Assembly: GCF_009834535.1 (NCBI RefSeq)
Contig: NC_045696.1
Coordinates: 59,212,001-59,276,000 of the forward strand
From: Camelus ferus
Taxonomy: Eukaryota
Direction of reading: 5' to 3'
DNA: 64,000 bases
Below the pieces are notes generated by a model. That model was not told where the DNA came from. It saw only the letters and a program-made list of their open reading frames with translations, and ran no database searches. How positions within the stretch are numbered: the stretch's first letter is position 1; each line of letters starts with the position of its first letter. A program made the translations under genes and the position numbers. Below, in pieces: positions 38,565 to 51,807 of this stretch.

Positions 38565-39552
38565 TTGTTCTTCAGCTTTTTTTTTTTAAGTCCTAACAGT
38601 GAACCTAACCCTAAACTTGCACTTAGCCCTAACCCTGAACCTAGCCCTGATAGTGTATGTAGCCCTGACTCTGAACCTAGCCCTAACCGTGAACATAGCC
38701 CTCACCTTGAACCTAGCCCTAAACCTGAAATTAGCCCTAACTCATCACCTAGCCCTAACCCTGCATATTGCCCTAACCCTGAAACTAGCCTTAACCCTGA
38801 ATCTAGACCTAAATCTGAACCTAGCTCTAACCCTCAACCTAGCCCTAAACCTGAAACTAGCCCTAATCCTGAACATAGTCTTCACCTTGAAACTAACCCT
38901 AATCCTGCACCTAGCCTTAACCCTGGACCTAGCCCTAAACCTGAACTTAGCCATAAGCCTTCTCCTAGCCCTAACTCTGAAACTAGCCCTAACCCTTCAC
39001 CTAGACCTAAACCTGCACCTAGGCCTAACACTGAACTTTGCACTAACCGTGAATGTTTCTTGTCCTAACCCTTAACCTAGCCCTAAACCTGAATCCAGCC
39101 CTAACAATGAACCGAGCTCTAACCCTGAAACTAGCCCTAAACCCGAACCCAGACCTAAACCTGAAACTAGGCCTAAAATGGACCTAGCTAGCCCTGCACC
39201 TAGCCCTAAACTTCAACCTAGCCTTAACCCTGAACCTAGCCCTCAACCTGAACCTAGCCCTAAGCCTGCATGTAGACATAACCCTACAATGGGACCTAAA
39301 CATGCATCTAACCCTAAACCTGAACCAAGCCCTAACCTTGTACCTATCCCTGACCCTGAACCTAGCCCTAAACCTGAACCTACCCCTAACTGTGAACCTA
39401 GTCCTAAACCTCAACATAGCGGTAAACTAGAAACTAGCCCTAACAATGAACCTTGCCCTATCCTTCTTTTTTTTTTTTTTTCTTTTCTCTTTTTGGCATC
39501 ATTTTATTTATTTATTTATTTTAACATTTTTTATTGATTGTTCGTCAGCTTT
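38565..39552 (-). mobile_element. L1-mediated retrotransposed insertion (3' transduction) with a 15-bp TSD
   Basis: TTGTTCTTCAGCTTT (38565-38579) and TTGTTCGTCAGCTTT (39538-39552). T-run at 38577-38587, internal T-run at 39467-39481, and an L1-3'-end-like TTTATTTTAACATTTTTTATTGATT at the right end. Confidence 0.75.
38592..39461. repeat. 18-bp telomere-variant minisatellite/satellite (consensus CCTAGCCCTAACCCTGAA), roughly 48 diverged units
   Basis: Directly visible periodicity built from CCCTAA, CCCTGA and ACCTAG hexamers. Confidence 0.95.
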
Positions 39553-42405: not shown

Positions 42406-42516
42406 GCCTTCCTAAACACTTCCATCTACTCTTATGTATCAGGCCTTCCTAAACACTTCCATCTACTCTTATGTATCAGGCCTTCCTAAACACTTCCATC
42501 TACTCTTATGTATCAG
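42406..42516. repeat. Perfect 37-bp tandem repeat, 3 copies
   Basis: GCCTTCCTAAACACTTCCATCTACTCTTATGTATCAG at 42406, 42443 and 42480. Confidence 0.95.
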
Positions 42517-47930: not shown

Positions 47931-50069
47931 GAGTCATTTCATAAGGTTTCCCCCATTCTGGTCCACACCTGTTGAGAATTTGATATGAACCTTTCTCTAA
48001 ACTTGCAATATTTCTTCTGAATTTGGGATGAGCTAATGCTCTTGCCAGGCCTCTTGTTCTTTATGTGCACAATAGTGGCGGTTAATAGCGACTCTGTCTT
48101 CATGTGCACGTGTGGGAGTGCAGGGCAGGGTTTAGGCGTAGGGTTAAGGAGAAGGCAAAATTTAGAAAGGACAAATGAAAAATACTTTCATTGTCAGAGG
48201 AGGTGGTAAATAAGGGGCATCTGGCTGCTTTAAGGCAGTTGAAGCTATCAGACCAGATGAATTAGATCTCATGGCAGTGAACTTTGGATGTCAGAGTCTC
48301 TATTCATAATTTTTAAGAAATGAGGTCTGATAGATGTACCCAAGACTGAGGACAGACAACTGTACTTATTTTTCCATTGGTTAAAAAAAAATTGTGACAT
48401 TCAGTAAAGAAAGTAAGGAGTACAGGGAACCAGAAAGGGTTCACTAAAAACTTATTTACTTCATCATATTTGCTGTTAGATCTGGAAAGGTCCCAGTTGC
48501 TTTGACTGGAAACAGGTGGAACCAAGTAGGTTACCAGAGACAAATAGATCCAGGAGATTCTAGCTGGTGGGTACCCATGTCATCAACTTTACACTAAGAC
48601 CTGGTTTTCCTATTAGCCATGTTTTAACACATTAGGTGAGGCCACAGCCTCTCCATCTGTCTGGATGAGGCAGCAGCAACAGTCCTCAACACACCACGTT
48701 AAGTGCTCATGTCTAAAGAGCCTCTGTTTTGTAGGCTCGCAGTCACTGGGACTATAAACAGAATACTGGCTAATTATTGTTTAATTATTGCTTAAAAACC
48801 AATTGGCACAATACAATCACTGCATTAATTACCCCATACAGCATCTGCTTTCTTTTTAGAGGTCTTCCCCATTCCTCCCCATCCCCTCTCCCCACTTTAA
48901 TTGAAATTCAGCTTGCTGTAACACCTCCTTTCTCCTGGCCAACTGGATCTCTCCATTCACACGAGGGAGAAGAACAAAACAGAGCAGCCCCTGGAGATTA
49001 GGGAGTTTTGACAGCTGTCCAAGAGGAGCGCTGAGATACGGGCCAAGTACCGAGGCAGGGCAGAGACAAATGAAAGACAGAAGAGAGTGAGGGAGGGAGG
49101 GAAAGATAGGCAGGGACACACCGCAAGAGGAATGACCTGGCGGTGTCACAGAGACAGGCAGAAATGTTTAAAGGGGCGCTGAAAAGGGTAAAAAGAAAAA
49201 AGCTTAAGAAAGAGAGAAACTAAGGTGAGTTGGTGAGGAAAATGCGAATGGCTCCGGAGAGGCCGGAGACAGGACAGACCTTGTCGCGAAGGAGGGGGAA
49301 AAAGTCCAGCCTCTAGGGACAGATCAGTCCAGCTCGGGGACAGGCAATTTGGGGGGGCGGGGGCGCACACACCTGGGAGTAGGGTGGGTGGAGGAGACGG
49401 CCACCAGGCCGCGAGCACCGGCAGCGCGAGGGGCGAGGCTGAGCGCGCGGGGCTGGGGCGTAGAGCCCTCTCGGCGAGCCCGGCGTGCGCCCAGCAGCCC
49501 GGGACTCGCCCGGCGGCCCCGCCCCCTCCCCGGCCGCCTCCTTCGCCGGGGCTTTTCCTGCGGGGTTCAGGAAGCCGGCCTAGCGTAACCGCGAACAATA
49601 GCTCGGGGCCCGAGCTTGGCTCCCGGAGAGACCGGCGCGGGGCGGCGCGGGAGAGAGGCGTCCGCGCCGCCGGGGGCTCTCGGCGAGCCCCCGGCCCGGG
49701 CCGGAGCTTCTGTTGAGCTCAGCGCTGCCCGGGTCATTGTTGGCCGGGACTGAGGAGCGGGAGCCGTGGGAGGAGCTGCGAGGCGGCGGCGCTGGCGGAG
49801 CCAGAGGGGGAGCTAGAGAGCGAGCGAGGGAGGGAGGCAGGGAGCGAGCGGGCGAGCGAGCGAGGGAGGGAGGAGGTAGAGAGACAGGGAGGGTGGGAGG
49901 GAGGAGGAAAAATAAAGAGGAGAGCCGAGCAGGGCTGAACAATAGAGACAGGCAGACGGGCGAGGAGGAGAGCCAGCTGCTTCTTCTAGGGGAGAGCGGG
50001 CGCCCAGGCAGCCCAGACCCCGGCCCCGGCCAGACCGCAGGCGGCCAGCGCCCCGGGGGAAGGGGGACC

Positions 50070-50120
50070 ATGGGGGAGCCAACGGCAGGCGCCCCCAGCC
50101 CGTCTCGCGCCTCCGCCTGA
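50070..50120 (+). other. Upstream ORF in the KALRN 5' leader (MGEPTAGAPSPSRASA*)
   Basis: ACCATGG Kozak context at 50070, TGA at 50118-50120, ending 188 nt before the main ATG. Confidence 0.5.
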
Positions 50121-50308
50121 GGTAGCCTCGGCGTCCTCTGCCCCAGCCCCGCCGCCCCGGCCGCCCGCCCTCGAAGCCCGGTGTCCGCCGGGTTTGCGGC
50201 CGCGGCCGCGGCCGCTGCGTCCCGCGCCCTCCGCCCACCAGGCGCCAAGCAGCCCTTGGCCCCAGGCTTCGCCAGCCCCCGGCTGCCCGCGGACGCCCTC
50301 CCCCAGTC

Positions 50309-50381
50309 ATGAACCCCCCGGAGGGGGCAGCGGAGGAAGGAGGAGCCGCCGACTCGGACGTGGACGCCTTTTTCCGGACAG
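50309..50381 (+). CDS. KALRN: Kalirin RhoGEF kinase, alternative first coding exon (Ex1B-type N-terminus), 24 codons plus a phase-1 donor
   Basis: ATG at 50309 encodes MNPPEGAAEEGGAADSDVDAFFRT, which I recognise as the Kalirin b-isoform N-terminus preceding GSFRNDG. The strong donor CAG|GTAAGC at 50381/50382 splits the Gly codon. The exon lies inside a CpG island. Confidence 0.92.
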
Positions 50382-51807
50382 GTAAGCTGGGCAGGGCGCG
50401 GGGGCCGGGGAGGGGGGCTGCTGCCCTGGACGCGGCGTCTTGGACAAGTTTGGGGAAGGAGGGCTGTTGCTGGGGTGTGCGTGTTGGGGGGCAGTCCCCC
50501 TCGTCGTCGGGGCTGGAGTTGCCGAGATTCTTGTTGTTATGGCAATACTGGTCGCGTTTGGGGGAGGAGTGGGGGCTGGGAGCTCGGCGCCCCTCGGCGT
50601 TCACCCCACTTGCAGGAGTCTGTGTTGGGGAGGCGGGAGGCGGTCCCCTCGGGCTGCCTTCTCCCGGAGCGCGGGGATGGGGCGATGTTGGATCACTTTG
50701 CAGCGTGCGGCTACCGGCGTCCCCCGCCCCTCCCTCGGCTCCCCCCTTCCCCCAGCCCCTGTCAGCCGGGCTCCGGCCGCCCTGCGCTGGCACCCTTTCT
50801 CGGGCCGGCGGCCCCGGGCTCTGCTGTGCAGAGGGGCAGCGGGGACCGGGAGTCGTGTAGGCTGCAGACTGACAGTCAGGAGCGGAGCGGACCGAGGACG
50901 GTCGTGCTTGGTGTGTGTGGGGAGCCAGCGCCTCAGACTTGAGAGGCAGACCTGGCTGGGAGGGCGGTGGGCGCCTGGGACCTCCTCCTTGTCCTCCTCT
51001 CCTCCAGTTTTGGGAACGGATGAGCTTTTTTTTTTTTTTAAATAAGAATCACTCATTCCTGGAAGTGTGAGTTAGCGTCCCCCTCATACACACCCACTGA
51101 ATCTTTGCTTGCCTGTGGTATGTGGAGCACCCCCCATATCTGTCTTTCCAGCTGTTCTCGGCTCCTGCCTCCTCCCAGACCCAGGTTCTAGAACTCCTCA
51201 TGTTCCTTGGCTACACAGTCCCTTTCCCAGAGCGGACACCGACCACCCTCATCTCCCACCACCTGTGGCCCTGTTTCACTGATGACCAGGGATTCTCTAT
51301 CTCCCCTTTACCTGTGGCTTTCACCAACTCGGTAGATAGAGCTCCCCATCTTCCATGTCTGGAACCATTTTGTCTGGAATTTTTGTCCCAAGGAATCCAG
51401 TAAGTTATGGGGACCCTGGGCATCTGCCCTCTTTCTGTGAGTTGGATCAGAGGACATGAACTGGTAGGGGTCGAGGACCAGGTTAGCTCTGAAGACTCCC
51501 AGCGCACCCATCTGCTTCCTAGCCTCATTGCCTTGTCCTGGAGGTCATCTAACGGAAGGGGTGGGGTGCTTTGTTGGGGAGACTTGTGGCTTTAGAAGTG
51601 ACGTCTTGGTTGGCCATATGTTCATTTTCTAATTGGTCTGAAGAGAAAAGAGCAGGAGGACAGAAAAGAAGCTGAAGCCAGGGCCTGGAGAAAGCAAAGG
51701 GAGCCCTTGTTATCCTATCCTGCTTCCCAGGGCTCAGCCTTGCTTCTCCCTCTTCCTTTTTCCCAGACGTGTGGTCCAATATACACCCTGCGCCCCCCAC
51801 CCCCAAA

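What the first reader, a model, noticed from the sequence alone, without database searches (positions are those of the whole stretch)
38565..39552. Telomere-like satellite delivered to an interstitial site by L1 3' transduction
Seen: read on the minus strand, the insert has a short A-rich L1-3'-end-like tip (AATCAATAAAAAATGTTAAAATAAATAAA), a first poly(A), about 870 bp of (TTCAGGGTTAGGGCTAGG)n, and a second poly(A). The whole is flanked by a 15-bp TSD with one mismatch, and the junction CTTT/GA resembles the L1 endonuclease TTTT/AA site. Established: this is the target-primed reverse transcription signature of a 3' transduction. Inference: the source L1 sits in a telomere-variant satellite array (subtelomeric or pericentromeric), transcribed a G-rich TERRA-like read-through RNA, and seeded an interstitial telomere-like repeat by retrotransposition rather than by telomerase capture or chromosome fusion.
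Basis: partly seen in the sequence, partly recalled or inferred. Interest (0 to 1): 0.78.

Follow-up and report, generated by a model that had tools for sequence, protein, structure and literature searches.

The report
L1-copied fossils of a telomere-like satellite
This 1-kb insert is one of at least 11 scattered pieces of an 18-base telomere-like repeat in a probably camelid genome, likely pasted in by LINE-1 jumping-gene enzymes from RNA copies of a parent repeat block that was not found, which would make LINE-1 a source of telomere-like DNA inside chromosomes.

Summary
The anatomy is confirmed: 15-bp TSD with one mismatch, a 20-nt young L1 3' end, an A-run, 48 degenerate 18-mers and a short A-tail. 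The insert is not a one-off. The 18-mer occurs at 11 dispersed loci; 8 of 11 have significant junction TSDs, and most have A-tails at L1-endonuclease-like sites. Seven were copied from the C-rich strand and four from the G-rich strand, so a G-rich TERRA-like RNA is not the general rule. No two copies share a segment (0 of 55 pairs). No parent array turned up in the assembly or in contigs of two whole-genome runs. L1 reverse transcription is about 90% likely. For this insert, 3' transduction (55%) narrowly beats copying in trans with a template switch (30%): no source L1 was found, and 0 of 11 ends carry a poly(A) signal. The repeat is telomere-derived but barely telomeric (no TTAGGG dimer). 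Three of five older hexamer arrays also show TSD plus A-tail. The outgroup empty site could not be tested. None of the 8 earlier scan notes shown covered this repeat.

The parts
39538..39552 (-). 5' copy of the target-site duplication (15 bp); its last 2 nt overlap the L1 tip (microhomology)
39520..39539 (-). Last 20 nt of a young L1 of this genome, including its own poly(A) signal
   Evidence: identical to the end of the full-length L1 in L036/L004; 5165 exact copies, control 0
39501..39519 (-). Tetranucleotide-patterned A-rich L1 tail
   Evidence: sequence; similar tail in L014; 1 of 70 ordinary L1 ends
39495..39500 (-). 6-nt non-satellite linker, probably flank of an earlier source L1
   Evidence: found only at this locus by exact patterns
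39467..39494 (-). First A-run (28 nt, G-interrupted)
38588..39466 (-). Array of about 48 degenerate 18-mers (TTAGGG CTAGGT TCAGGG), G-rich strand in sense
   Evidence: 23 TTAGGG hexamers, no TTAGGG dimer, 3 TRF-type half-sites
38580..38587 (-). Terminal poly(A), with no poly(A) signal in the 50 nt before it
38565..38579 (-). 3' copy of the target-site duplication

Best explanation
This 988-bp insert is an A-tailed, TSD-flanked piece of an 18-bp telomere-like satellite behind a 20-nt L1 3' end, likely made by L1 reverse transcription of a read-through RNA from an L1 that probably sat in a parent array not found in this genome. Shown: the anatomy, the L1 identity of the tip, 10 sibling inserts in both orientations, and that each sibling carries a different segment. 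Inferred: (1) an ancestor had a large, already degenerate telomere-derived array, probably over 20 kb; (2) L1 copies inserted in it in both orientations; (3) their transcripts ran into the array and gained A-tails without a canonical signal; (4) ORF2p nicked this site, copied about 900 nt of satellite and the A-run, and stopped 20 nt into L1; (5) the eight copies without L1 are orphan transductions or copies made in trans; (6) the parent array was later lost or is unassembled. I put L1 reverse transcription itself at about 0.9; the confidence given is for the transduction route.
For: TSD p=0.009 here; 8 of 11 loci pass p<0.05, and in 8 of the 10 loci with a junction repeat it starts pyrimidine/AA as aligned. 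The order L1 end, A-run, satellite, A-run is seen in 3 of 11 loci (L001, L004, L014), always with L1 on the 5' side and of the same young family; so high a partnered fraction is natural for transduction. Insert lengths of 128-1138 bp match human transductions of 8-997 bp (PMC9311842, passages). TSD copies differ at 4 of 95 sites in six loci and L1 copies by 5-7%, whereas monomers differ by 27% from each other, within or between inserts, so the array was degenerate before it was copied. Zero overlaps imply a source over about 20 kb (simulation: p=0.036 at 20 kb, 0.30 at 50 kb).
Against: No source L1 with this linker or this segment was found. No poly(A) signal of 13 hexamers lies in the last 50 nt in any of 11 inserts, whereas 6 of 7 prolific human donors had one. 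No shared source among 55 pairs, whereas 27 of 58 human progenitors gave several offspring. All 3 partnered copies have a linker plus second A-run (2 of 70 ordinary L1 ends by pattern, about 5 of 70 by eye), and 2 of 3 have L1 tips of 50 nt or less (3 of 70 ordinarily); transduction predicts neither. L004 has no TSD around L1 plus array and reads as well as a nested insertion. The nick site here is a weak match.
Confidence: 0.55

Rival explanations
1. Copying in trans with a template switch: the parent array was transcribed on both strands into A-tailed TERRA/ARIA-like RNAs. ORF2p copied random fragments; in this insert it then jumped onto the poly(A) tail of an L1 mRNA and copied 20 nt of L1 before joining.
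For: Both strands are used (7 C-rich, 4 G-rich), segments never overlap, and no poly(A) signal is present. Hamster cells make abundant polyadenylated RNA from both strands of large interstitial telomeric arrays (PMC13403905, passages). The linkers are non-satellite, so the L1 ends look like mature L1 mRNA ends from unique DNA. The L025 tail holds an 8-nt match to the L1 terminus 3' of the satellite (weak, low complexity).
Against: It needs a switch in 2-3 of 11 events. Described L1 chimeras put the other RNA 5' of L1, the reverse of this order (bioRxiv 2025.02.02.635956, passages). The linkers are no more expected under this model than under transduction.
Confidence: 0.3
2. Two separate events: a very short L1 inserted first with the 15-bp TSD, and a satellite retrocopy later inserted into its A-tail with a duplication made of A only.
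For: A-runs flank the array on both sides, and L004 shows an 11-bp A-rich repeat directly around its array (p=0.024).
Against: L1 ends of 50 nt or less are 3 of 70, and linker-bearing ends 2 of 70. Such targets are a tiny part of the genome, yet the layout occurs twice (L001, L014).
Confidence: 0.09
3. Not RNA-mediated by L1: telomerase addition, capture of satellite DNA at a break, or a chromosome-fusion relic.
For: Direct target duplications occur at a few horse ITSs (PMC7215372, passages). Use of both strands and the lack of a poly(A) signal also fit DNA capture.
Against: The unit is an 18-mer with no TTAGGG dimer in this insert, which a TTAGGG template would not produce. A-tails lie on one side only, next to the 3' TSD, in either strand orientation. 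The array has one orientation, not head-to-head. Internal duplications in L003 and L016 show an evolving tandem array.
Confidence: 0.06

Closest known systems
L1 partnered and orphan 3' transductions (PMC9311842, passages seen; the term 'orphan' is recalled)
   Same: L1 3' end, A-run, foreign DNA, A-tail and TSD in that order; similar lengths.
   Different: The cargo is a telomere-like satellite; no poly(A) signal; no progenitor found; no shared segments among 11 copies.
Class 1 templated sequence insertions (Onozawa and Aplan, PMC5110952, passages seen)
   Same: TSD, A-tail and TTTT/A-type site on non-L1 RNA; fits the 8 copies without L1.
   Different: Class 1 has a poly(A) signal before the tail, absent here; the paper says no such insertion held telomere sequence.
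Short interstitial telomeric sequences and TERC-ITS (PMC7215372, PMC8537989, PMC6410037 passages seen; PMC2246262 search listing only)
   Same: One-step insertion of telomere-like repeats at an internal site; TERRA-derived cDNA is proposed as a source in PMC7215372.
   Different: Those are near-perfect hexamers with break-repair junctions; this is a degenerate 18-mer with L1 hallmarks on either strand.
TERRA and ARIA from heterochromatic ITS arrays in hamster cells (PMC13403905, passages seen)
   Same: Polyadenylated RNA from both strands of a telomere-like array is the substrate this family would need.
   Different: The passages seen describe no retrotransposed copies, and the camelid RNA has not been observed.
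L1 chimeric insertions such as U6/L1 (bioRxiv 2025.02.02.635956, passages seen)
   Same: Two RNAs under one TSD, by ligation or template switch.
   Different: The order is reversed here; the words satellite and telomer- do not occur in that main text.
Alpaca satellite catalogue VpaSat01-16 (PMC13751797; abstract, Results part 1, supplementary table seen)
   Same: Camelid satellite DNA.
   Different: Units are 1.8-8.5 kb; the 18-mer is not in the first 400 letters shown of 14 consensus sequences; the rest of those cells was cut and could hold it.

Membership tests
L1 TPRT insertion | Target-site duplication of about 7-20 bp | tested here: met
   15 bp, 1 mismatch, p=0.009; 8 of 11 family members pass p<0.05
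L1 TPRT insertion | 3' poly(A) next to the TSD | tested here: met
   8 A plus 3 shared with the TSD; longer tails in most siblings, minimal in L005
L1 TPRT insertion | Endonuclease site like TTTT/AA | tested here: inconclusive
   CTTT/GA here, 4 of 6; good matches at L003, L005, L009, L016, L025
L1 TPRT insertion | Empty orthologous site with one target copy | not testable with these tools
   no related genomes are held; both DNA runs laid carry the insert
L1 partnered 3' transduction | L1 3' end with its tail upstream of the foreign DNA under one TSD | tested here: met
L1 partnered 3' transduction | Foreign DNA matches the flank of a source L1 | tested here: inconclusive
   no source in the assembly; heterochromatin may be unassembled or lost
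L1 partnered 3' transduction | Poly(A) signal 10-40 nt before the terminal tail | tested here: not met
   0 of 11 inserts, 13 hexamers tested from recall
Class 1 templated sequence insertion (trans) | No L1 part in the insert | tested here: not met
   L1 tip present here; absent in 8 of 11 family members
Short ITS made by telomerase or end-joining | Near-perfect (TTAGGG)n | tested here: not met
   18-bp period, no TTAGGG dimer
Short ITS made by telomerase or end-joining | Adjacent telomerase-RNA fragment | not tested
   no telomerase RNA sequence was at hand
Fusion-relic ITS | Head-to-head inverted arrays with subtelomeric flanks | tested here: not met
   single orientation, unique flanks
U6/L1-type chimera | Non-L1 RNA 5' of a truncated L1 | tested here: not met
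   L1 lies 5' of the satellite (definition)

The most novel reading that the evidence does not exclude
L1 ORF2p is a recurrent maker of interstitial telomere-like repeats in mammals. It copied polyadenylated TERRA- and ARIA-like RNAs of both strands in trans, with a C-rich bias. The 11 18-mer inserts, plus several older hexamer inserts, are the only surviving record of an extinct telomere-derived satellite and of its two-way germline transcription.
Probability: 0.35. Interest if true: 0.82.

Novelty: new variant of a known kind. Interest (0 to 1): 0.62.

Why it matters
Short interstitial telomeric repeats are explained in the papers I read by telomerase, break repair or fusion; a TERRA-cDNA route is only proposed there. 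This genome offers a countable series with L1 hallmarks on both strands, so the retrotransposition route becomes directly testable by comparing orthologs and by screening other mammals for tail-plus-TSD telomeric arrays. The copies also preserve samples of a satellite that seems to be gone. No function is shown: with no TTAGGG dimer and 3 TRF-type half-sites in 881 bp, strong shelterin binding is unlikely (inference).

Tried and rejected
Source searches: exact patterns for this linker and for the L014 linker found only the inserts themselves. Present-day subtelomeres as source: rejected; they carry TTAGGG with TTAGAC/TCAGGG units and gave no match to the 18-mer patterns. L004 as source: rejected. 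Retrocopies of the modern subtelomeric repeat: undecided; only the first 100 of 393 matches were listed, all at one locus. Metagenome scan: 11 hits, all single chance monomers in hexamer arrays, no 18-mer array; camelid DNA may not be in that collection. Reiterative synthesis from one 18-nt template: rejected, since about 16% error per base is too high and internal duplications exist. Empty allele in reads: none seen, but only the left flank and the array were laid, on 4 of 24 listed runs. G-rich hexamer-plus-tail pattern: 2 hits, each two units only, taken as chance. Gene identity at the CpG island: the Pfam and structure look-ups failed on frame errors and the paper search found nothing. Literature: searches listed no paper whose title or abstract start describes L1-retrotransposed telomere-like satellite or this 18-mer; the library lacks most subscription journals, and bioRxiv supplements were closed.

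Full report
Observation. On the minus strand the insert reads: TSD (39538-39552), 20 nt of L1 terminus, a patterned A-rich tail, a 6-nt linker, a 28-nt A-run, about 48 degenerate 18-mers, 8 A, TSD (38565-38579). The TSD is the best 15-bp pair near the ends and beats random windows at p=0.009 (I set the window boundaries by hand, so these p-values are optimistic). The tip equals the end of a 7.05-kb full-length L1 at G000:C37 and has 5165 exact copies, control 0.

A family. A DNA search with the array gave 59 matches from 40 of 51 candidates scored; a second query, with all 38 candidates scored, gave the same top loci. An exact 17-letter pattern hit 26 places in 9 loci, control 0. A looser one hit 51 places: 50 in 11 loci and one lone hit with no array, control 4. 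All 11 are short dispersed arrays of 128-1138 bp with an 18-bp period. A twelfth, of about 5 monomers, has no clear tail or TSD (L124) and is left out of the counts. Eight of 11 have a junction repeat at p<0.05; L003 (0.068) and L005 (8 bp exact, 0.158) are weaker and L007 fails. A stricter ungapped test that down-weights A passed 5 of 11. By the side of the tail, 7 are C-rich sense and 4 G-rich sense (not different from even, p=0.55). Three have an L1 end, a linker and an A-run upstream: this one, L014 (47 nt of L1, C-rich array) and L004 (full-length L1).

The parent. No pair of inserts is collinear (0 of 55 at p<0.01; lowest p=0.04). Neighbouring monomers are as unlike as monomers of different inserts (0.273 against 0.275), apart from rare internal duplications. 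TSD copies differ at 4 of 95 sites in six loci and L1 copies by 5-7%. So the array was already degenerate when copied; with a recalled rate of 1-2 changes per billion sites per year, the events are of the order of 10-30 million years old. No overlap in 6.2 kb implies a source above about 20 kb. None is assembled, and present subtelomeres carry a different repeat. At 80% likeness only 16 and 13 contigs of two whole-genome runs were laid, and summed depth peaked at 87 and 26 against 13.9 and 9.7 for the locus. Loose ends that I could match by eye belong to L002, L003, L012 and L016; a few matched nothing I hold. This points to loss of the parent, but contigs collapse repeats, a filter drops human-like records, and the contig table was cut, so absence is not proven. 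Fourteen runs, 8 of them marked as possible sources of this DNA, hold at least 99% of the words, so the insert is probably fixed. Monomer changes are transversion-rich (ratio 0.62, against 2.37 for L1 pairs; G>T 8.2%, G>A 7.2%), which would fit oxidative damage in telomere-like DNA (inference).

Mechanism. Tails, TSDs and nick sites across the family make L1 target-primed reverse transcription about 90% likely. The route is open. For transduction: L1 lies 5' of the satellite in 3 of 11 cases, a share hard to reach by rare switches, and the lengths match human transductions. Against it: no progenitor, no poly(A) signal at 11 of 11 ends, no shared segments, and unusual L1 ends, with linkers in 3 of 3 (2 of 70 ordinarily) and tips of 50 nt or less in 2 of 3 (3 of 70 ordinarily) (the 70 are the first listed on contig C1 of 5165, not a random draw). 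The linkers are not satellite, so transduction needs two steps: an L1 with a short flank first entered the array and was then read through. L004 lacks a TSD around L1 plus array, sits between two non-contiguous old L1 pieces, and has an 11-bp A-rich repeat directly around its array, so it may be nested. Copying in trans is made plausible by hamster cells, where both strands of large interstitial telomeric arrays give polyadenylated RNA. I weigh transduction at 0.55, trans plus switch at 0.30, nesting at 0.09 and non-L1 routes at 0.06; these weights are judgement.

Beyond the 18-mer. Five older hexamer-type arrays have an A-tail on the C-rich strand, and 3 of 5 have a TSD at p<0.05 (L127, L030, L144). 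They were picked because of their tails, so the pooled count of 12 C-rich to 4 G-rich (p=0.077) is only a lead; the mirror search for G-rich tails gave 2 two-unit hits.

Comparison. The insert works like an L1 3' transduction but fails the poly(A)-signal feature and has no identified source, so I do not file it as a proven one. It is not a telomerase-type or fusion-type interstitial telomere. A TERRA-cDNA origin for such sequences is proposed in PMC7215372 (passages), through break repair. PMC5110952 (passages) reports no telomere sequence among templated insertions. The review PMC6410037 (passages) has no occurrence of 'LINE-1' or 'transduc'. PMC8662618 (passages) describes an alpha-satellite insertion without a TSD. 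PMC8537989 (passages) has no occurrence of camel or alpaca. Nine searches listed no paper on this 18-mer or on L1-retrotransposed telomere-like satellite (listings only, limited library).

Verdict. No function is shown. Interest 0.62.

Noticed in passing
window 38577-39161: One run guessed to be RNA (X15) has a single 587-bp contig at depth 55 that starts at the terminal A-run, with the left flank uncovered. This would fit oligo-dT priming on a minus-strand transcript through the insert; contigs show neither strand nor level, so it is a weak hint.
   Followed up: no
window 49000-51000: CpG island with a plus-strand exon at about 50309-50381 followed by a splice donor; from recall it is a first exon of KALRN, not verified (one search found nothing). 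The insert lies about 10 kb upstream.
   Followed up: partly
L127, L128, L129, L030, L144: Degenerate hexamer telomere-like arrays with an A-tail on the C-rich strand; 3 of 5 have a significant TSD.
   Followed up: partly
L028, L130, L132-L135, L138, L142, L144: A second dispersed telomere-like family with CTAGGG, TGAGGG and TTAGAG units and a 12-bp bias, 0.1-1.9 kb long; origin not studied.
   Followed up: no
L008, L017, L019, L022, L023, L024, L143: Subtelomere-like loci share one unique sequence, then degenerate repeats, TTAGAC/TCAGGG units and pure TTAGGG up to an N gap; several lie mid-contig, which suggests chromosome ends scaffolded internally.
   Followed up: no
L125, L131, L136, L137, L141: Head-to-head inverted TTAGAC/TCAGGG arrays with a shared unique flank on contigs C24, C29 and C33.
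   Followed up: no
L036 (G000:C37:51110000-51119900): A decayed full-length 7.05-kb L1 sits between an old L1 5' UTR and an old ORF2 piece without a TSD, possibly an insertion-mediated deletion.
   Followed up: partly
window 42406-42516: Perfect 37-bp tandem repeat, 3 copies.
   Followed up: no
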